NCBI RefSeq assembly: GCF_009914755.1
Contig: NC_060930.1
DNA: 64,000 bases
Strand: one strand, 5' to 3'
Origin: the human T2T-CHM13v2.0 reference genome, Homo sapiens
A program made the position numbers and the translations under genes. The notes beneath the pieces were generated by a model. It saw nothing but the letters and a program-made list of their open reading frames with translations, ran no database searches and was not told the DNA's origin. The stretch's first letter is position 1. The number at the start of each line of letters is the position of its first letter. Below are positions 24,265 to 56,660 of this stretch, in pieces.

Positions 24265-26241
24265 TTCCTTCAGGAGCTCTTGTAGGGCAGGCCTGGTGGC
24301 GACAAAATCTCTCAGCATTTGCTTGTCTGTAAAGGATTTTATTTCTCCTTCACTTATGAAGCTTAGTTTGGCTGGATATGAAATTCTGGGTTGAAAATTC
24401 TTTTCTTTAAGAATGTTGAATATTGGCCCCCACTCTCTTCTGGCTTGTAGAGTTTCTGCTGAGAGATCCGCTGTTAGTCTGATGGGCTTCCCTTTGTGGG
24501 TAATCCGACATTTCTGGCTGCCCTTAACATTTTTTCCTTCATTTCAACTTTGGTGAATCTGACAATTATGTGTCTTGGAGTTGCTCTTCTCGAGGAGTAT
24601 CTTTCTGGTGTTCTCTGTATTTCCTGAATTTGAATGTTGGCCTGCCTTGTTAGATTGGGGAAGTTCTCCTGGATAATATCCTGCACAATATTTTCCAACT
24701 TGGTTCCATTCTCCCCATCACTTTCAGGTACACCAATCAGATGTAGATTTGGTATTTTCACATAGTCCCATATTTCCTGGAGTCTTTGTTTGCTTCTTTT
24801 TACTCTTTTTTCTCTAAACTTCTCTTCTCACTTCATTTCATTCATTTGATCTTCAATCACTGATACCCTTTCTTCCAGTTGATTGAATTGGCTACTGAAG
24901 CTTGTGTATTCATCGCGTAGTTCTTGTGCCATGTTTTTCAGCTCCATCAGGTCATTTAAGGACTTCTCTACACTGGTTATTCTAATTAGCCATTCGTCTA
25001 ATCTTTTTTCAAGGTTTTTAGCTTCTTTGCAATGGGTTTGAACTTCCTCCTTTAGCTCGGAGAAGTTTGATCGTCTGAAGCCTTCTTCTCTCAACTCGTC
25101 AAAGTCATTCTCCATCTAGCTTTGTTCCATTGCTGCTGAGGAGCCACGTTCCATTGGAGGGGGAGAGGTGCTCTGATTTTTAGAATTTTCTGCTTTTCTG
25201 CTCTGTTTTTCCCCATTTTTGTGGTTTTATCTACCTTTGGTCTTTGATGATGGTGATGTACAGATGGGGTTTTGGTGTGGATGCCCTTTCTGTTTGTTAG
25301 TTTTCCTTCTAACTGTCAGGACCCTCAGCTGCAGGTCTGTTGGAGTTTGCTGGAGGTCCACTCCACACCCTGTTTGCCTGGGTATCAGCAGCAGAGGCTG
25401 CAGAACAGTGGATATTGGTGAACAGCAAATGTTGCTGCCTGATCATTCCTCTGGAAGCTTTGTCTCAGAGGGGTGCCCAGCCATGTGTAGTGTCAGTCTG
25501 CCCCTACCAGAGGGTGCCTCCCACTTAGGCTACTCGGGGGTCAGGGATCCACTTGAGGGGGCAGTCTGTCCATTCTCAGATCTCAAACTCGGCGCTGGGA
25601 GAACAACTACTCACTTCAAAGCTGTCAGACAGGGACATTTAAGTCTGCAGAGGTTTCTGCTGCCTTCTGTTCAGCTATGCCCTGCCCCCAGAGGTGGAGT
25701 CTACAGAGGCAGGCAGGCCTCCTTGAGCTGTGGTGGGCTCCACCCAGTTAGAGCTTCCTGGCCAATTTGTTTACCTACTGTTTACCTACTCAAGCCTCAG
25801 CAATGGCCAGCGCCCCTCCCCCAGCCTCGCTGCCGCCTTGCAGTTTGATCTCAGACTGCTGCTCTAGCAATGAGTGAGGCTCCATGGGTGTGGGACCCTC
25901 TGAGCCAGGCGCAGGATATAATCTCCTGGTGTGCCGTTTGCCAAGACCATTGGAAAAGTGCAGTATTAGGGTGGGAGTGACCCAATTTTCCAGGTGCCAT
26001 CTGTCACTGCTTCCCTTGGCTAGGAAAGGGAATTCCCTGACCGCTTGTGCTTCCCAGGTGAGGCGATACCTCACCTTGCTTCAGCTCACACTCAGTGCGC
26101 TGCACCCACTGTCCTGCCCCCACTGTCTGACAAGCCCCAGTGAGATGAACCCCGTACCTCAGTTTGAAATGCAGAAATCACCGATCTTCTGCATCGCTCA
26201 CACTGGGAGCTGTAGACTGGAGCTGTTACTATTCCCATTTG
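24265..26241 (-). mobile_element. L1PA5/6-like element: full 5'UTR plus most of ORF1, 3'-truncated
   Basis: Minus-strand ORFs 24828-25115 and 24474-24761 are ORF1p. The 5'UTR runs to …GAATAGTAACAGCTCCAGTCTACAGCTCCC. No ORF2, tail or TSD. Confidence 0.93.
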
Positions 26242-37070: not shown

Positions 37071-38197
37071 AAAATAAATTTATCTTCCATTATGATTTAT
37101 AAGTATCTTAACCCTTTCAACAGAGATTTATTTCTTTTCTTAGTCTATTTCATGTTGCTATTGATAGATATTTAAAGCAGGATAGTGTTTTCTTTCTTTT
37201 ATAAAATAAAATGAAAGTTCAGTGTTTGAGGCTCTACATGTGATTATTTCTCATTTTCCTTTGGGCTAAAAATCTTCAGTTACTCTCATTCTATAATACA
37301 TCACCTCCTGATTGAAAACCCTAGCTCTCATATACACTTTAAATCAACACCAATGAGCCAATGTATTATTACCACTCTGAGAGTAAGAACACAAAATGTC
37401 CATTTCTGAAATTTGGATCCCTATCTTATAGATGCTATTATTACCCAATGGAAGTATTTCTAGAAGTCTAGCTTCTCTGTCTTTAACGAAAAATTCTGTA
37501 ATAGGTATTTGAAACATAATAAAATTGAACTTTAAGGAATATCTTTTTTTATTTTCCAGTGATGAATAAAAATAATTGGGAGATTTAAACAACTTAATAT
37601 AAAAAAAACAGAACCTTTAAACATACAAATTGTAAGTGAAATGTAGAGTAAATGTTAACACCTCACTTTTTTCCTTGACAAGCACTTTCTCTCATATTCA
37701 TTTTTAATGTCAGAGAATTCACAGAACTAAGATCTTTATTCTAAACCTCCACAGCTTGCTTCAGAAAGTAATTATGTAGGTATTTGTCAGAAACTCAGCT
37801 AATAGGCTTAGGAATTTAAAGTAATATGTAGAATATAGTTAACAAAGATATCTACCACAACCCACTCTCCTCCCCTCTCTTCTCTCTCACAGTGAGGCAT
37901 CACTCCAAACCAATTCTGGACACATTCTCCTTTAAGAATCAGAGATGGGGGTGGGGCATTATAAAATCTAGTAAAAGTAAAGATTCAATGAAACAAGTAT
38001 GCAAGTATACAGATGGTAGGCATGTAAGCTGATTCAAGCTTTGTGGAGAAGACATTAGCAGCAAGGTCCTAGAGCTAGTTTCCTTTGGTGCCTTCATGTG
38101 AAACTAAGTGTTCCTTGTTTTCCCTCAGCCAGCTCCTACCCCACTGTCCTGAGCTGATTTCTACTGTGCCACAAAATCAGAAGATGCATGGGTAATT

Positions 38198-38825
38198 GTG
38201 TTTGTCAGTCAGGGTCCCTGCAGAAAACAGATGGCTCATTCAAACTGGATACTTTGAAGAGAATTTGATAAAGGAACTACGTAGAAAGACATGGACAAGA
38301 TTAAAGGAGTCCCACAATGCCAGTCAAGTAATGGGGTGGTAATAATGGGGAGACATCTTGAAGAAGAGGAAGGTAGAAAGCAGTTACCAAAACCCGGAAA
38401 AGGCAGCATTATGAGAAGGATTCAACATGGGCTGTGCCTTTTGTGGAGCAATTAATCCTCCACCCTTACTGTCTTCCCACCCTTTTATTTCTTGCCAGTG
38501 GCTCTCTTCGGCTAAATCAACCTAAAACCAGGGAGAAGGAGGCTCACTGATGGTAAGCAAATGGGTTAGCTACCTTGACAAGACTTGTTAAGCAATTTTT
38601 GTGGTTCGGTGAAGAATGAAAATGCAGGGCTCCTTTGTTTAAAAACAATTTTTAGGAATTTCAAGATGGTAATAGCAAAACAATAAATCAAGTGTAGGAT
38701 CCCACTGAGTGTGGAACCCTGTGCAACTGTGTAGGTCACATGCTCATGAAGCCAGCCTGCTCCCAGGACACATAGAAAAATGAATAGGGATACAGAAGGA
38801 TATGAAGGACATAAAGGTATACAGC
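38198..38825 (-). mobile_element. LTR33-like ERVL LTR interrupted by MER91
   Basis: TGTCAGTCAGGGTCCCTGCAGAAAACAGATGGCTCATTCAAACTGG…; subfamily tentative. Confidence 0.6.
38579..38759. mobile_element. MER91A-like hAT-Tip100 MITE
   Basis: AATGAAAATGCAGGGCTCCTTTGTTTAAAAA…GAATTTCAAGATGG…CCCTGTGCAACTGTGTAGGTCACATGCTCATGAAGCCAGCCTG. Confidence 0.75.
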
Positions 38826-38829
38826 ACCA

Positions 38830-39000
38830 ATGTGTTACCTTGGACAAGTTACTCAGGTATTCTATATCACAGTTTACAGGTCTGTTAAGTGGAGATGACA
38901 AGAGTATTTTATATTGTTATTCTGAGGATTAATTGAGGTGATACATGCAATTTTCTCAAGTCAGTGGCTGGCAAAGAAAAAGTAAATGTCAACTACTAGT
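38830..39000 (+). mobile_element. MIR
   Basis: TGTGTTACCTTGGACAAGTTACTC…TCTGTTAAGTGGAGATGACAAGAGTA…TGAGGATTAATTGAG. Confidence 0.7.
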
Positions 39001-42000
39001 ATTAACTTTAACACTTAATATCAATATGCAGAGAGATATATTCATATGTAATTGCATTTTTATAAGTTATGCAATTTTTATCATTTTGAAAACTTCTAAA
39101 TTTGTTTACTATTTTTCAGGGAAATTTTTATATTTACATAATTTTGAAGAATCCTGGAATGTATGGTGAATAGGTACTCTGTAAAAATGAAAATGTTTTC
39201 CTGATATTACTGCCACCTTCTTAAAACTGAGGATATTAACCTTTCATGTAAGAATCAGAATAGTTATTTTATGGTACCTGGTTACCCAAATGTGAATAAA
39301 TTGCCCCTCCCATTCCTCTTATCAAGACTTGTGTGTGTGTATGTGTGTGAGACCTATAAAAACTTCTCTTTTCTAATGACACTTTTTCTTATCCACCCCA
39401 TGCCACTGATCTCCTCCTTTGGCTGTTCTTGAGGTCTTATTTTTGTATCATGCATTTTCCACCATGCATGTTCCTGGGTGCCATGGAGGAGAGTGGAAAG
39501 AGCAGGATTTTAAAGCCATACAGGCCATAGTTAGGATTCCAATTTTGCTAATTACCAGTTGTTCAAACATAGACTGAGTTTCATGTTATTCATCTGTAAC
39601 ACGGGAATTCTTGAGAATCAAATTCTTTAATTATATTGAACACAAAGCCTGACATCCATGAGGTACTCAATAGTTCTTTTCTTCATTCCTCCTTATTTCA
39701 GTCTTAGTTTCTAACTATATTTTAAACTGCTAGAGGGAGCAGTAATTTGTCTTGCCTAATATCTTTATTCCATTCAACAGCTTCTCAAAACATGTTTTTT
39801 ACAAAAGTAACATTTTAAAAATGTAAATAGAATCACTTTCTTCTTTAATAAACATACTGAATAGACTCAGAAATGATAATATAATGTCAAACTGGTAATC
39901 AGGAACTAATGGCAGAGTTTTATTTCCACCATGAACTAATTGTGTGGCATATGAAAGTCTAGCAATATTCTTATGAACTACGTGATATTGACATACAAGT
40001 CAATTTATGAACTGACTTTTGCCTAGAAATTAGGAGGTCCTATTTAGCTATTTTCCCCAGTACAAATATAAAATGATCAATAAGGAATCATAATATTTTA
40101 ATTTTCTAATACAGTTGTCACACAAAGGAATACACCGGTCATTGCAAACATTGGCTTACCAGTTAACTCAAACCACTGAAAAATCATAGTTACTCCAAGT
40201 CATTAAGAAATAAGTCTGCATAGGTAAATTCTTCAAAGACAAAACTGTTTGGTCTTTTCTGACAAGAGTTAAAATATTTTTTATTATATTTTCTAAAAAT
40301 GCATTTATTACTGTACATTACTTAATCTTTTCTAGATGATTCAGGATGTAATGCTAAACATCAATAAAGGGCCTGTGCTGTAAGCACCTGTATATACAGG
40401 GAACACTAAGATTAGTAATGTTTTGCCATATATTAAAGGGCCAAACAATTTGCTTTTGTTCTTTGTGGGTGTGTGTGTTCGTTTTGGAGAAATATCTCTT
40501 GCCTTGCTGCCATATTAGCTCCTTACTTTACTGTGTGTCTGCTTGTAACAATGACGCTTCACTATTCAACTGTGATATTCTTGATCTCCTGGGATTTAAA
40601 AAATGAGATGATGAATCTTATTGGACTGCTATGCAATATAAAACTAAAATTAAAGGCAGTACTTATAAGGCTTTCCTAGCAGTAAAGTATCCAGGCTTTA
40701 GTATTATTTATCATCAATTTTAGCTGTTTTAAAATTGCTTCCTTCCTGTTTTCAGGCCAAATGCTGAATATCTGAGTTGTTAATATGTTATAACAAGATT
40801 AAATGACATTTAATTACTTTAGTCATATATACCAAAGTTCCCATTTTAGTTTAAAAATTCAAATAAAGCAAAGGAATGTCTCAAATTAAAATTTCTGAAA
40901 AGTTTAAATTCTGCTTGGTCATTAATTTAGTACAGACATACTGCTTCTCACTTCAACTTAGGTCTCTGAAAAATAAATAACATGGTTTTCAAAAGACAAC
41001 AGAGAAAAAAGTTGATGATTACAAAGCAAAAATATATACCCATGTATTTAATTTACATATCACTTTACTTTTACTATATTCTATGCAGTAACTAAGATTA
41101 CTCCAGTAATTCTAGTTGAAATGGGGACATTTTCTCATTATTGGAAGCTCCCTAAAAGAAAAAACAATATGCTCTCATAAAATATCTGATTTTTAAAATG
41201 GTGGATTATAAGAATTTTACATTATAAGGATTCCTTATTTTTTCTTTTTCATGGCAGTCTTACAGTACCCCTAATATGTTATACCTGATTCTTTTCACTG
41301 TTGTGATTCAAGGTCACTGTATAAAAAAATTTTGCATTGCTGGCGTGCAAAATGTTGAAGGTGGTTGCTGTCACCTTGAATCATTTTGCACATTTCTCTT
41401 TCTTTTTTTAAAAAAAGTGGAGTAGCAGTGACTTTATCTTGTACTAGTCTACTAAAGATTAATACTACGCTTTGAAATTATTGAGAAAACCTATTTTCTA
41501 AAATGATTCTGCCTTGTTACTGAAAAGAAAAAATAAAAATCTTCACATTACACGGTAGGTGCAGATGGATATACCTAGGAAAGGAGCACTCGACCTTGGC
41601 AGCAGAACCTGAGTGCTTTTAAGGAGAGGTCAAAAAGACAGATCGTTAGTTCAGCTTCATGTCTAAGAAACATGTGCTGCCTTGAGTTAAGCATGGGGCC
41701 TTTCATGAGAGGCCACTTTTGTTGCTGGGCACTTCAAATTCTTCTCAAACCTCTCTTAACAATTTAAACAGCCATTTTTACTTTATTTTCCATACCTCAC
41801 TTATGATTGCATTTTTCCTAACAGAAAATAAACTCAACTGTTTCATGCTCCACCCAAAATCTTTGTGTGCACTGGTCTTTCTTCAGAGCTCAGCTTACAT
41901 ACATCATCATTCAGTGTCAACTCTACTGCCACGCTTTACTAGGAATACATATTTTCACCACAGGTGAAAGGCAGCACATTCTGAGCCATTTTTACTTCCA

Positions 42001-42608
42001 GAGTCACTGTGCTGACTCAGGTGCTAATCACTTCCTTTCTGCATGAAACCTTTCCACTTGCCCTTCCTGTCTCCAATCTAAGTTAGCCCTGACTACCAGG
42101 CAAATGGCAACAAAAATTATCTTTTTAAACATTAGTTTAATTTATCTGTTCAAAACTGTGTACCCAATTCAGAGAAGTTAAACAAACAATTGTATGTTCT
42201 AGGCACTACGTTAAACATATAAACAGATTATAATACAGCTCTTAAGTGTATTAACTAAGAGCCCTTGTAGGAAGTAGTAATGGGAGTATTGTGGTAAGGA
42301 CCTAACACAACCTAGAGAAAAGGGTAAGTGTCAGTGAGGGATTCCTGGACTTGGCAAACACTTGAGTTTTAACAGGAGTAGAAGTTTGAGCTAAAACCAT
42401 CAAGACTGGATCATGTCTGCTTTTCTAGCTGCCTCCCCCTAACCTCTTTTAGGCACACTCTGTACTCAGATAACAAAAGCTGTTTGCAGTTCTCTGTACA
42501 TATCATGCTGTTTCATACCTCCAATTCGTTATGCAGGGGCTCCTCCCTTGACTTTTGACATTCTTCCCTGCCCACCCTCGTTTATTCTTTTTCAAGCCTA
42601 CTTTTCCT

Positions 42609-43006
42609 TTATTTTAGTCTGTTTTCTGTGCTATAACTGAATACTTGAGACTGGGAAATTTATAAAGAAAAGAGGTTTACTTAGCTCATGGTTCTGGAGG
42701 CTGGGAAGTTCAAGATTGGATGGCCACACCTGGTCAGCTTCTAGTGAGGGCCTTGTGCTGCACCAAAACACGGTGGAAGGCATCACAGGGCAAAGGGGCA
42801 CATAAGAGAGAGCCAAACTGGCTTTTATAACAAATTCACTCTCATGCTAACCCATCAATCCATTAATCCATGAATAGGTTAACCCATTCATGAGGGCAGA
42901 GTACTCATGACCCAATCACCTCTTAAAGGCTGTACCTCTTAATACTGTTATATTAGGTATCAAGTTTCAACATGAGTTTTAGAGGCACAAACATTCAAAC
43001 TAGAGA
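42609..43006 (-). mobile_element. MSTC/MSTD-like solo LTR (within an L2 remnant)
   Basis: TTAGTCTGTTTTCTGTGCTATAACTGAATAC…GGTTCTGGAGGCTGGGAAGTTCAAGAT…CATGACCCAATCACCTCTTAAAGG…ACAAACATTCAAAC. Confidence 0.85.
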
Positions 43007-43287
43007 ATCTTTCAAGGTTCCACTGAGATGTAACTTCCAAGATTATATACGTATCTCAAGTTAGGGTACAAATGATTGCTCTATGTTCTCCAATAACTTG
43101 CTCTGATAACTTCCTTTATGGTGTGTATTACAATGCATTGTCCCCTTCCTTAATATAAATTGAAGATGTGATCCATATGATGTTCTATTTCAAACCAGAG
43201 CACTGCTTGTGTTCAATAAGTGTTGCTTACAAGCAACAGTCAACCCTACTGAAGCATCAAAAGAATAAAATACTTAAGAATAAACTT

Positions 43288-44480
43288 GAATCAACTGAAT
43301 AATTTCTCCTAGCAGATCAAAGTTAATTGTGGCGAGTCAAATTTCTCAATTGTGATCAAACCCTGTGGGTCAAATTCAAATTTTGTTTTATTTACTAGTT
43401 TTATTTTTAAGAAAAATTTCATTTCACCTCTTCCAATGCAGAAGCATTTATTTTAAGATACACTACCACCTATTATTGTCAAGCTACTAAGTTATTAAAG
43501 CAATGTAATTTGTTATCTGTGTCTCCTGGACATTCCTCATGTCACCAACTCTTACGGTATGATGTCAATGCAAAGATGGCTATTCGTCAAAATGCATTTA
43601 CCACAACTGCCAATCTTTATGGGTCTTGCTTCAAAGGTATCTTTTTTGCAAATTCTAACATTTCCCTAAAAATCTGGCTTTATTTTTTATTCTTATAGTC
43701 TATGAAAGTCACAGAGAAAACAACCACTGCTATTATGAAATTTCAGCCAATACTATGGTTGATATCTACAATTTCTCTCACAAAGTATGCAAGCATTACT
43801 TTGAACTGCATCTGATATAGATTGGTAGCCCAGGTCATTATTTGCAAATAAACGAGTCCTGTTTTAGCCACAAAATCCAGTATAAGCATGGCTGTGCTCC
43901 AGAGAGAGAAACGTGAGTTGTTGGTTTTGTTGATACTATCCATCAATCAGCTATTCGTTACTTGGAAATTGTTGGTGACCATTATGCCCACAATTTCCAG
44001 CCTATTTTGCCAGGTGTTGGTCACCCTGGTTCTTCCATTCACTCTGATTCACAGGCTGCATATAACATTCAGCCTTTCCTCAGTTTCCAACATGCTCAGG
44101 TTAACCATAGTTATGCCAACTTCCATTTCGTGTCATCTCTTGGCATTCTTACCCAAAAGCATCTTATCCATGGGGTTCTATTTGAACAAATGTAAAGCAA
44201 AGTGCAAGACTGTGAGAGAAGTTTGTGGTGATATGTTAAACACATATTTGGTTAAATTTATATGGCATAATTTGGAAATAATGCTTTCAACTTCCTTCTA
44301 CTTCATAAATCAGAACAATTTCTTGTTAACTAATATGATGTTTCCTTTTATTACATATATCAGAAAAATTTCTTATTAACTAACATATTTTCACTTTTGT
44401 TTTTGTATGTTTTGGTACAAATATCCATGGACAAATTATTTAATTGAATACATCTGAAAATGAAATTGTTCAAATTATCC
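43288..44480 (+). mobile_element. Merlin-superfamily DNA transposon (Merlin1_HS-like), apparently full length, 1193 bp
   Basis: Imperfect TIRs (GAATCAACTGAATAATTTC vs revcomp GGATAATTTGAACAATTTC, 14/19), 8-bp TSD ATAAACTT/ATAAATTT, and internal IS1595/ISXO2-like transposase motifs. Confidence 0.9.
43510..44275 (+). pseudogene. Decayed Merlin/ISXO2-like DDE transposase
   Basis: Frame from 43824 reads GSPGHYLQINESCFSHKIQYKHGCAPERET*VVGFVDT…PGSSIHSDSQAAY…QHAQVNHS…FVSSLGILTQ; after a frameshift, YLNKCKAKCKTVR…MLNTYLVKFIWH. Start approximate. Confidence 0.88.
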
Positions 44481-44915
44481 ATAAATTTAGCCAATGATGC
44501 AAAATACTTGTACACTGAAAACTACAAAATATTGTTGAAAGAAATTAAAGATGAAAATAAATAAAAAGACACCTCATATTCATTAATTAGAAGACTTAAT
44601 ATTGCTAAGATGTCAATACTACCCAAAGTGATCTACAGATTCAATGCAAATTCTATCAAAATCTCAACTAACATTTTTGGGCAGAAATAGAAAAATCTAT
44701 ACTAAAATCTATATGGAATCTCAAAGCATCCAGAATAATCAATACAATCTTGAAAAAGAAGAACGAAGCTAGAGAACGCATACTTTCTGATTTCAAAACT
44801 CATTGTGAAGCTACATTAATTAAAATAGTATGATACTGGCATAGGAAATGGCATACAGACCAATGGAATAGAATCGAGAGCCCAGAAATAAACTCTCACA
44901 TAGATGGTCAAATGA

Positions 44916-45219
<304 letters not shown>

Positions 45220-46171
45220 TGATTTTTAATAAAGGTGTCAGGACCATTTAATGGAGAAGGAATAATCTTTTCAATAAATGGTACTGGAAACATTGGATAT
45301 CCACATATAAAAGAATGGAATCAGACCCTGACCACCTAATACATGCAAAAATGAACTCAACTTGGATGAAAGACATAGATGTAAGAGTTGAAACTATAAA
45401 ATTCTTAAAAGAAAACAGAAGAACACTTCGTGATACTGGATTTGGCAATGGTTTCTTGAATATGACACCAAAAGCACAGGCAACAAAAGAAAAAAATTGA
45501 TAAGCTGGACTACATCAAAATTAAAAATGTTTGTGCATCAAAGGACACAATTTTTAAAAAGTAGTTAACCCTACTGAACAAACATTTTTGGCTCTGTTCA
45601 GACCAACAGTTCTCAAACTTTTTGGTCTTAAGACCCCTTTACTCTCCTACAAATTAAGGACTGCAAAGAGCTTTTGTTTATATGGATTGTATCTATTGCA
45701 GCTTACTATATTAGAAATTAAAATATTTAATTTAAATATTTTTATTGCATAATTTGTTCATGCATATTTGTACTAAAGCATACTAAAAACAAAACTGAAA
45801 ATATAATATTAATTAATAGAAAATTGTTCTGATAAATGTTAATATTTAATTTAAATATTTTTAAAATAAATATTTAAAATAAAGATTAGTTAAAATTTAA
45901 AATATTTATTACTTCATTTAAAATTATAACAAATTCATTACATGTTTAAATAAGTAACAAATTTTATGAAATTTAACATCATTTTCCAATATACAAGTAA
46001 TTTTAGTGAAAAAAGTGGCCCTGTTTTACATTTTTGAAATTTCTTTAATATCTAGCTAAATAGAAGACAGTTGCTTTCTCATATCTGCTTCTACATTTGA
46101 TTTGTTAGAATACATTATTTTGGTTGAGGTAGGTAAAGAAAATCCAAGCTCACACAGTTACACAGTTGGAA

Positions 46172-47581: not shown

Positions 47582-48007
47582 AAATCTTAGTAGTTTTATA
47601 AAGCACTTTAAACCTCAAAAATCCTCTAAAAGGGTCTTGGGAACCTGCAGAGACATGCTGACCACACTTTTAAAAACTGCTGGTTTAAAGAATCCAGGAA
47701 TTTTGGAACTTCTTAATATCAAACTGACTTCTGAACTCAAAACCACTGACCTTTCCAGTAAAAGATAAAAAGAGATTAAATTGTCTATCTCCCTTGTTTT
47801 ATATGAGAAGAAATGGAAAGCTGAGGGAAAGATGCAATGACTTTCCCATCACTAACTGGTATTAGAACCTAGACTGCATGACTTTTCACTAACATTTTTA
47901 CTCCGTAGCTCAATGAGTATGACTCTAACATTACAGATAAAATTATTTAAGAAACGATTCCTTTCTCAAGCCACTAAGTGACAGGTTTCTAAAAATCTAC
48001 CAGATCA

Positions 48008-48680
48008 TTAAAAAGTCAGGAAACAACAGGTGCTGGAGAGGATGTGGAGAAATAGGAACGCTTTTATACTGTTGGTAGGACTGTAAACTAGTTCAACCAT
48101 TGTGGAAGTCGGTGTGACAATTCCTCAGGGATCTAGAACTGGAAATACCGTTTGACCCAGCCATCCCATTACTGGGTATGTACCCAAAGGAGTATAAATC
48201 ATGCTGCTATAAAGACACATGCACATGTATGTTTCTTGTGGCACTACTCACAATAGCAAAGACTTGGAACCAAGCCAAATGTCCAATAATGATAGGCTGG
48301 ATTAAGAAAATGTGGCACATATACACCATGGAATACTATGCAGCCACAAAAAAGGATGAGTTCATGTCCTTTGTAGGGACATGGATGAAGCTGGAAACCA
48401 CCATTCTCAGCAAACTATCGCAAGGCCAAAAAACCAAACACCGCATGTTCTCACTCATAGGTGGGAATTGAACAATGAGAACACTTGGACACAGGAAGTG
48501 GAACATCACACCCTGGGGCCTGTTATGGGGTGGGGGCAGGGGGGATAGCATTAGGGGATATACCTAATGTAAATGACTAGTTAATGGGTGCAGCACAGCA
48601 ACATGGCACATGCATACATGTGTAACAAACCTGCACGTTGTGCACATGTAGCCTAAAATTTAAAGTATAATAAAAAAAAA
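48008..48680 (+). mobile_element. 5'-truncated L1PA4/5
   Basis: ORF2 C-terminus (ORF 48178-48471 ending HRMFSLIGGN), 3'UTR, polyA; 17-bp TSD AAAAATCTACCAGATCA (47991-48007, 48676-48692); GATCA microhomology at the 5' junction. Confidence 0.95.
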
Positions 48681-55755: not shown

Positions 55756-56660
55756 GTGATACATCACATGAACAGAATAAGAACAAAAATCATATAATCA
55801 TTTCAATAGATGCAAAAAAAAGCATCTGACAAAATTAAACATTTTAAATAATAAAAACTCTTAAGAAATTAGGTATAGAAGGAATTTACCAGGAACATTA
55901 AAGGCTATACATAACAAACCTACAGTTAACATCATACCAAACAAGGAAAAGTTGAAAGCTTTTGCTCAAAGATCGGGAATAATACAAGGCTGCCCACTCT
56001 GAATACTTCTATTCAACATAGTATTAGAAGTCCGAGACAGATCAATTAGGCAAGAGAAAAAAAGAAAGAAAAGGCATCCAAATTGGAAACAAAGAGGTTT
56101 AATTGTCCCTGTTTACATGACATGATCTTATAAGATTTTAAAAAAAACAAAAACCTGAACACTCCACCAAAGGGGGGAAAAAAAACTGTTAGAACTAATA
56201 AATGAATTCAGTGAAGCTGCAGGATATAAAATCAACATACAAAAATCAGTAGCATTTCTATACGCTAACATTGAACAATCTGAAAAAGAAATTTTGAAAA
56301 ATCCCATTGAAAATAACGACAAAACATAATATGCTTAGGAATAAATTTAACCAAGGAGGTACAAGATCACTACATGAAAAGTTTAAAACACTGAGGAATG
56401 AAACTAAAGAAAAAAACCAATAAATGGAAAGATATCCCATGTGTATGTATTAGAAGAATTAATATTCTTAAAATGTTCATACTACCCAAAGCAATCTACA
56501 AATACAATGCAATCCCTACTAAAATATCAATGTTATTCTTCATAGGAATATAAAAAAATACTAAAATTTGTATGAAACCACAATAGACCCCTAAATAGCC
56601 AAAACAATCTTGGGCAAAAAGAGCAAAATCAGAGGCATCACGCTACCTTATTTTGAAATA

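What the first reader, a model, noticed from the sequence alone, without database searches (positions are those of the whole stretch)
43288..44480. Complete Merlin (bacterial IS1595/ISXO2-like) transposon with a reconstructable DDE transposase
Seen: 1193 bp bounded by imperfect TIRs (14/19) and an 8-bp TSD (ATAAACTT/ATAAATTT) that splits an L1 ORF2 exactly. Manual translation gives IS1595-type motifs: G-P-G..QINES (for QIDES), *VVG (for WVFG, TGA at 43914), PGSSIHSD..AAY, H..VNHS..FV..G..TQ, and YL.KFIW (for YL.EF.WR). Known: Merlin is the eukaryotic superfamily related to IS1016/IS1595, makes 8-9 bp TSDs, and has a low-copy human family (Merlin1_HS). So the family is described but rare. Inference: this copy keeps both ends and the whole coding region, useful for ancestral reconstruction. 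It is dead: first catalytic D reads N, the E position appears as G, plus stops and a frameshift near 44155-44170.
Basis: partly seen in the sequence, partly recalled or inferred. Interest (0 to 1): 0.8.

Follow-up and report, generated by a model that had tools for sequence, protein, structure and literature searches.

The report
Dead Merlin DNA transposon copy in human L1
This is a real but long-dead copy of the known, rare human Merlin DNA transposon, inserted into an old L1 element; it is unusually complete, but the family is already described.

Summary
Window 43288-44480 is a 1193-bp element. Its ends coincide with those of a dispersed human repeat family of about 24 places at 68-77% identity. 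It is flanked by a 7/8 direct repeat. Ten other L1 copies run straight across that site, and in the 5 that can be read to the base the two flanks overlap by exactly 8 bp.

Single-copy Pfam hits to DDE_Tnp_IS1595 are all below threshold. A profile of the family's own frames finds 2307 proteins at E<=1e-3, and 37 of the 40 I scanned carry that domain. A frameshift-aware alignment to an intact 303-aa relative covers its residues 54-283 at 41% identity, scoring 337 against at most 50 in controls.

The copy is dead. The first catalytic D reads N, the E position reads G beside a 10-bp insertion, and there are 4 stops and several frameshifts.

It meets the defining Merlin features, and Repbase lists one human Merlin family, Merlin1_HS. 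So it is already known.

The parts
43247..43287 (+). Left part of the interrupted L1: only 41 bp of L1, so the L1 is 5'-truncated or broken here. It includes the left copy of the target-site duplication.
   Evidence: It matches 10 of 10 other L1 loci at 93-100%. Nothing upstream to 40000 aligns colinearly with those loci.
43280..43287 (.). Left copy of the target-site duplication, ATAAACTT
   Evidence: 8-bp overlap of the flanks on uninterrupted L1 copies.
43288..44480 (+). The Merlin-type DNA transposon copy, 1193 bp
   Evidence: The only place besides its twin that matches itself end to end. Both ends coincide with the family termini.
43288..43308 (+). 5' terminal inverted repeat. It starts GA here; the family consensus starts (G/A)G.
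43436..44333 (+). Remnant of the transposase reading frame. The ATG at 43436 aligns with residue 1 of the intact relative P0010. The TAA at 44331-44333 aligns with the relatives' C-terminus. The ancestral length was about 305 aa.
   Evidence: The start and stop are inferred from alignment with other copies and with P0010.
43454..43456 (+). In-frame TAA, where P0010 has Q
   Evidence: (frame starting at 43289) compared with P0010.
43696..43698 (+). In-frame TAG
43818..43820 (+). In-frame TAG. The twin copy has CAG here.
43851..43853 (+). First catalytic position: AAC (N), where relatives and the copies L004, L007 and L008 have D (QIDES)
43914..43916 (+). In-frame TGA, where relatives have W of WVFG
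44046..44048 (+). Second catalytic D (IHSD), intact
44159..44168 (+). Window-specific 10-bp insertion that shifts the frame inside the E block
   Evidence: A frameshift is placed at about 44157.
44173..44175 (+). Third catalytic position: GGG (G), where relatives and the copies L003 and L007 have E (N-I/V-E-S-Y-W)
44292..44386 (+). Tandem duplication with a 50-bp period (units 44292-44336 and 44342-44386, 84% alike). The other family copies have one unit.
44429..44447 (+). Inner, subterminal copy of the terminal-repeat motif near the 3' end
   Evidence: pair I5 (84% complementary to 43291-43309). It is conserved in the family alignment.
44460..44480 (+). 3' terminal inverted repeat. Its reverse complement starts GG.
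44481..44488 (.). Right copy of the target-site duplication, ATAAATTT
44481..44900 (+). Right part of the interrupted L1 (it continues further)
   Evidence: Aligns with other L1 copies at 66-80% identity.

Best explanation
Window 43288-44480 is a fossil copy of an ancient, low-copy human DNA transposon of the Merlin superfamily. These are eukaryotic relatives of bacterial IS1595/IS1016 insertion sequences. The family is most probably the one catalogued as Merlin1_HS.

Inferred mechanism. When active, the element encoded one DDE transposase of about 305 aa. The enzyme bound the roughly 21-bp terminal inverted repeats and a subterminal repeat of the same motif. It cut the element out and pasted it into a target opened by an 8-bp staggered cut. 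Here the target was ATAAATTT near the end of the reverse-transcriptase region of an older L1.

Shown here.
- The coding remnants are homologous to IS1595-type transposases.
- The element has terminal inverted repeats and an 8-bp target-site duplication.
- The interrupted L1 is colinear across the insertion.
- Other copies lie at independent sites with their own duplications.
- A short form of about 580 bp with an internal deletion occurs at three or more sites, so elements were mobilised in trans.

Inferred only: the biochemical steps, and the age. The copy is 16% diverged from the family consensus (18% after Kimura two-parameter correction), which would put activity in early placental mammals.

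The copy is now inert: two of the three catalytic residues are lost, there are 4 stops, and there are several frameshifts. It was later copied passively, with at least 8.9 kb of flanking DNA, to the other side of the chr6 centromere.
For: Family and ends.
- 48 matches in about 24 places at 68-77% identity, plus a 98% twin.
- The window's ends equal the family's ends.
- The consensus ends agree over about 21 nt and begin (G/A)GATC.
- Other copies have their own 8-bp duplications: L009 8/8, L006 7/8.

Target site. In 5 of the 5 L1 loci that can be read to the base, out of 10 examined, the flanks overlap by 8 bp.

Protein homology.
- PF12762 is the top match for the window (E=4.9e-4, 20.6 bits) and for two independent copies, L003 (1.3e-3) and L010 (5.9e-5).
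- NCBIfam NF033547 (IS1595 family transposase) gives 3.2e-5 for the window and 2.4e-8 for L003.
- The family profile A1 finds 2307 proteins at E<=1e-3, 504 at <=1e-10 and 29 at <=1e-30.
- I scanned 40 of the 150 listed hits. 37 carry PF12762, 36 of them above the curated cut-off.
- BLASTP of the window read-through against the intact P0010 gives 45% identity over 124 aa, E=2e-33.
- The frameshift-aware alignment has 224 codons at 41% identity and scores 337. Controls scored 50 (reverse strand), at most 47 (12 shuffles) and 42-44 (3 neighbouring stretches).
- The whole-genome search with P0010 matches this locus at E=1.5e-25.

Short form. L012, L014 and L020 are colinear over about 575-618 bp.

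Defining features of Merlin were taken from passages of PMC8101967.
Against: - No single frame reaches Pfam's 27-bit cut-off. Only 3 of 39 frames from 13 copies matched PF12762 at E<=1, and the 98% twin's frames did not match at all.
- The Pfam model run over the whole genome found nothing at E<=0.01.
- The best library hit, P0002, is itself made of two human copies and so is not independent.
- In this copy the inverted repeats are only 14/19, and the 5' end starts GA, not GG.
- The name Merlin1_HS was not checked against a Repbase or Dfam consensus, because none is on hand.
- The consensus used for the divergence rests on at most 15 copies, and some aligned pieces included flanks. The 16% figure is therefore rough.
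Confidence: 0.93

Rival explanations
1. It is a Merlin-superfamily element, but from a second human family not yet catalogued. Alternatively, the catalogued Merlin1_HS consensus is shorter than this copy.
For: I could not compare it with the Repbase or Dfam consensus. The original description (Feschotte 2004) and the survey of human DNA transposons were not held.
Against: Repbase's overview lists a single human Merlin family (PMC5753468, passages). The DNA search and the search with an intact Merlin-type protein (18 of 18 matches in the same loci) find only one family in this genome.
Confidence: 0.05
2. The similarity to IS1595 transposases is a chance effect of AT-rich open frames, and the element is an unclassified repeat.
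For: Single-copy Pfam scores are below the curated cut-off. The whole-genome Pfam search is empty.
Against: The profile search reaches E=4e-75 on proteins that carry PF12762. The frameshift-aware score is 337 against at most 50 in 16 controls. All three catalytic blocks align in the right order.
Confidence: 0.01
3. It is a bacterial IS1595-family insertion sequence present through contamination or recent transfer.
For: The nearest curated models are prokaryotic ones (NF033547, PF12762).
Against: There are about 24 decayed copies on 16 chromosomes at about 72% mutual identity. The element sits inside an L1 with a target-site duplication. It lies within a duplicated block of human DNA. It has stops and frameshifts.
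Confidence: 0.005

Closest known systems
Merlin1_HS (the human Merlin family in Repbase; relics reported by Feschotte 2004, as cited in PMC8101967 and PMC5753468)
   Same: - Human host, low copy number and ancient.
- IS1595-type DDE transposase remnants.
- 8-bp target-site duplications.
- It is the only Merlin-type family that my searches find in this genome.
   Different: No difference is known. The identity to the curated consensus could not be measured here. This copy has private changes: a 10-bp insertion, a 50-bp tandem duplication and nine small deletions.
Intact Merlin-type transposases of about 300 aa from the public protein library (for example P0010, P0012, P0017; organisms not given)
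   Same: - 37-41% identity over about 225 codons.
- The same order of blocks: QIDES, WVFG, IHSD, VNHS, NIESYW, YL.E.MWR.
- The same start and end of the protein.
- A four-cysteine motif near the N-terminus.
   Different: Those proteins are open reading frames with D, D and E in place. The window copy has N, D and G, plus 4 stops and several frameshifts.
Bacterial IS1595 / IS1016 (ISXO2-like) insertion sequences
   Same: The same catalytic domain (PF12762, NF033547) and 8-bp target-site duplications (PMC8101967, passages).
   Different: - Eukaryotic host.
- The window and L003 score far below the NCBIfam cut-off of 75 bits (23.9 and 34.1 bits).
- No match to the IS1595 zinc-ribbon model in 12 of 12 close intact relatives at E<=1.

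Membership tests
Merlin superfamily | Transposase with the DDE_Tnp_IS1595 (PF12762) domain | tested here: met
   The window scores E=4.9e-4, below the cut-off. The family profile retrieves PF12762 proteins down to E=4e-75, and 37 of 40 scanned hits carry the domain. All three catalytic blocks align.
Merlin superfamily | Target-site duplication of 8 or 9 bp | tested here: met
   It is 7/8 in the window. The flanks overlap by 8 bp on 5 of the 5 L1 copies readable to the base. L009 is 8/8 and L006 is 7/8.
Merlin superfamily | Terminal inverted repeats (24-462 bp according to PMC8101967) | tested here: inconclusive
   The repeats are present, but the consensus ends agree for about 21 nt, with one more match at position 24. 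That is at or just under the quoted lower bound. The window copy itself is 14/19.
Merlin superfamily | Termini begin 5'-GG | tested here: met
   The reverse complement of the window's 3' end starts GG, and its 5' end starts GA. Other copies start GG (L005, L015) or AG (L009, L012, L016). Six 3' ends finish ..TCC.
Merlin superfamily | No N-terminal Zn_ribbon_IS1595 domain | tested here: met
   None of 12 intact close relatives matches PF12760 at E<=1. 4 of 12 weakly match another zinc-ribbon model.
Merlin1_HS (Repbase/Dfam family) | Nucleotide similarity to the curated consensus along most of its length | not testable with these tools
   No Repbase or Dfam library is on hand. The assignment is by elimination (PMC5753468 passages).
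Bacterial IS1595 family (NCBIfam NF033547) | Score above the curated 75-bit cut-off, and a prokaryotic host | tested here: not met
   The window scores 23.9 bits and L003 scores 34.1 bits. The host is the human genome.

The most novel reading that the evidence does not exclude
This chr6 copy, the only one in the genome that matches itself end to end, might extend or correct the curated human Merlin consensus in its true termini, its subterminal repeat and its N-terminal four-cysteine region. Less likely, it represents a second family. Together with the chr1, chr3 and chr4 copies, it would allow a full transposase of about 305 aa from early placental mammals to be inferred.
Probability: 0.1. 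Interest if true: 0.3.

Novelty: already known. Interest (0 to 1): 0.15.

Why it matters
It matters little beyond good annotation. Merlin is the rarest DNA-transposon superfamily in the human genome, and this is its most complete copy at the DNA level. It is therefore a useful reference point for dating and for inferring the ancestral transposase. The family, its link to IS1595/IS1016 and its presence in humans have been in print since 2004, as cited in PMC8101967. Nothing here suggests present-day function.

A practical point follows from the tests. Single-copy domain searches miss these relics: Pfam found none genome-wide. A profile built from the copies themselves is decisive.

Tried and rejected
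- The Pfam model PF12762 run over the whole genome gave 0 matches at E<=0.01. It is too insensitive for decayed copies.
- The family profile searched against solved structures gave 0 matches at E<=1.
- Within the window, only one other L1 copy (about 56300-56660) aligned to the flanks, and the left-flank alignment was weak (score 36). It was replaced by 10 L1 loci from the genome.
- The idea that L1 continues upstream of 43247 was rejected. The one further match (42629-42703 to L034) also matches other non-L1 places in the window, so I read it as another repeat.
- The idea that the X and Y copies (L006, L017) are the same ancestral insertion was rejected. Only the element aligns, at 71%; their other shared matches lie at inconsistent positions or on the opposite strand and look like unrelated repeats.
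- A downstream search for the extent of the twin duplication was swamped by a high-copy repeat, so it gave no information.
- Feschotte 2004 and the 2007 survey of human DNA transposons were not held. Their content is cited only through other papers or marked as recalled.
- The genome search does not accept an alignment, so a single protein was used instead.

Full report
**What is at the coordinates**

The sequence shows a 1193-bp AT-rich stretch, 43288-44480, between ATAAACTT (43280-43287) and ATAAATTT (44481-44488). The two termini match as inverted repeats at 14 of 19 positions (pair I8 gives 75% over 20 nt). On its own that is modest for AT-rich DNA, so I looked for relatives.

**A dispersed family defines the ends**

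A DNA search of the window's own genome gave 48 matches from 26 candidates. They fall in about 24 places on 16 chromosomes at 68-77% identity, plus one 98% copy at chr6:62254017-62255209 on the opposite strand. The window is chr6:58156001-58220000.

- I aligned 17 pieces from 16 places. The window's first and last bases coincide with the ends of the family.
- The two consensus ends agree as inverted repeats over about 21 nt and begin (G/A)GATC.
- An inner copy of the same motif sits about 30 bp inside the 3' end (44429-44447; pair I5; conserved).
- Other copies carry their own flanking duplications: L009 8/8 and L006 7/8.
- Three copies (L012, L014, L020) are colinear with each other over about 575-618 bp and share one large internal deletion. 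A short non-autonomous form was therefore mobilised as well.

**The interrupted L1**

Only the last 41 bp before the element (43247-43287) match other repeats. Nothing further upstream is colinear with them.

- In 10 of 10 L1 loci fetched, the left and right flanks map on one strand in the right order.
- In the 5 where the right match starts exactly at 44481 (L034, L036, L039, L040, L041), the flanks overlap by exactly 8 bp on the uninterrupted L1.
- In the other 5 the right match begins 26-46 bp further in, so they are uninformative at base level.
- The site lies just after a reverse-transcriptase domain. RVT_1 scores E=2.4e-14 in L041, 6.9e-4 in L034, and gives no match in L039.

The element therefore inserted into an L1 near the end of its reverse-transcriptase region, with an 8-bp duplication. 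The L1 has only 41 bp left on that side.

**Coding capacity: curated models on single copies**

These hits are weak but consistent.

- PF12762 (DDE_Tnp_IS1595) scores E=0.035 for the 92-aa frame 43917-44195.
- It scores E=4.9e-4 (20.6 bits; cut-off 27) for the read-through of 43659-44195 with X at three stops.
- I scanned 39 frames from 13 copies. 3 matched PF12762 at E<=1: the window, L003 (1.3e-3, covering profile positions 12-150 of 153) and L010 (5.9e-5).
- The frames of the 98% twin did not match, which shows how marginal single copies are.
- NCBIfam's IS1595 transposase model gave 3.2e-5 for the window and 2.4e-8 for L003.
- The Pfam model run across the whole genome found nothing.

**Coding capacity: the family profile**

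I aligned 20 unaltered in-frame pieces from 12 copies (A1) and searched 1.84 billion representative proteins with the profile. It found 2307 proteins at E<=1e-3, 504 at <=1e-10 and 29 at <=1e-30.

- I scanned 40 of the 150 listed hits: ranks 1-30 and ten longer ones from ranks 32-49.
- 37 of the 40 carry PF12762, 36 of them above the cut-off.
- The three misses are fragments of 82-234 aa.
- The top hit, P0002, is not independent evidence. Its residues 1-102 equal the twin copy and residues 95-174 equal the chr5 copy, with TGA read as W.

**Comparison with intact relatives**

- Against the intact 303-aa P0010, the window read-through is 45% identical over 124 aa, E=2e-33.
- A frameshift-aware alignment covers P0010 residues 54-283 against window 43575-44271.
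- That alignment has 224 codons at 41% identity, three stops (43696, 43818, 43914) and three frameshifts (near 43617, 43739 and 44157).
- Its score is 337. Controls scored 50 for the reverse strand, at most 47 for 12 shuffles and 42-44 for three neighbouring stretches.
- The ATG at 43436 lines up with residue 1 of P0010 (M....F.D...P).
- The TAA at 44331-44333 lines up with the relatives' C-terminus.
- The whole frame of about 305 codons is therefore represented.

**State of the copy**

Against intact relatives and better-kept copies:

- The first catalytic D is N (43851-43853).
- The W of WVFG is TGA (43914-43916).
- The second D is intact (44046-44048).
- The E position reads G (44173-44175), just behind a 10-bp insertion private to this copy and its twin (44159-44168).

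Against the family, the copy also lacks 42 bp in nine small deletions. It also has a tandem duplication with a 50-bp period at 44292-44386, which the other copies lack. It differs from a leave-one-out consensus at 176 of 1102 sites: 16.0%, or 18.3% after Kimura two-parameter correction. This figure is rough, because the consensus rests on at most 15 copies.

**Comparison with what is known**

Passages of PMC8101967 give the defining features of Merlin:

- an IS1595-type DDE domain;
- terminal inverted repeats of 24-462 bp that start GG;
- target-site duplications of 8-9 bp;
- no IS1595 zinc-ribbon domain;
- relics present in humans, as first reported by Feschotte in 2004.

The family here meets these features. 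Its repeat length, about 21 nt, is at or just under the quoted lower bound. Passages of PMC5753468 list one human Merlin family, Merlin1_HS.

A whole-genome search with P0010 gave 18 matches at E<=0.01, all in loci of this one family. The window locus scored E=1.5e-25. The chr1, chr3 and chr4 copies scored higher. I could not compare the element with the curated consensus, and the original papers were not held. The family name therefore rests on elimination. From memory only, and not checked here, this family is regarded as old, shared by placental mammals.

**Verdict**

The element is a member of a described, rare family. It is the most complete copy at the DNA level, and it is dead. It is ordinary for annotation purposes and of low interest.

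Noticed in passing
window 37101-45980, and chr6:62252517-62261379 (L002, L032): The element lies in an inverted segmental duplication of at least 8.9 kb. The other copy is about 4.05 Mb away on chr6, at 97% identity: 97.1% over 4193 bp, and 26 differences in the 1193-bp element. The twin shares the 10-bp insertion and the 50-bp duplication. The full extent downstream could not be determined.
   Followed up: partly
window 45749-45844 (- strand): A second fragment of the same family, 96 bp long. It is 83% identical to positions 1062-1152 of the main copy and stops short of the terminus. It lies 1.27 kb downstream in the opposite orientation. An AT-rich stretch of about 24 bp is repeated on both sides of it (about 45722-45746 and 45841-45864). 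Its origin is open: an old truncated insertion, or DNA copied in during break repair.
   Followed up: partly
protein P0002 against L002 and L010: The best hit in the public representative library is a 174-aa 'protein'. It is exactly the chr6 twin copy (residues 1-102) joined to the chr5:77.41 Mb copy (residues 95-174), with TGA read as W. It looks like a chimeric artefact of human DNA in a protein catalogue.
   Followed up: yes
L012 (chr3:164.09 Mb), L014 (chr10:20.65 Mb), L020 (chr13:56.67 Mb); partly L018: A short form of the family, about 580 bp. It keeps both ends and lacks roughly positions 200-775. It occurs at three or more independent sites, so it is a non-autonomous derivative.
   Followed up: partly
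alignment A3 (12 intact relatives); window 43510-43615: The intact relatives share four conserved cysteines near the N-terminus (C37, C40, C60 and C65 of P0010). They do not match Pfam's IS1595 zinc-ribbon model (0 of 12). They match another zinc-ribbon model weakly (4 of 12). The window keeps three of the four cysteines.
   Followed up: partly
window 48003-48680 and 24265-26234: Two high-copy repeats. The first is about 680 bp, at 92-94% identity to the 38 loci that were scored. The second is about 1.97 kb, at 83-91% identity to 38 of the loci scored. Neither was classified.
   Followed up: no
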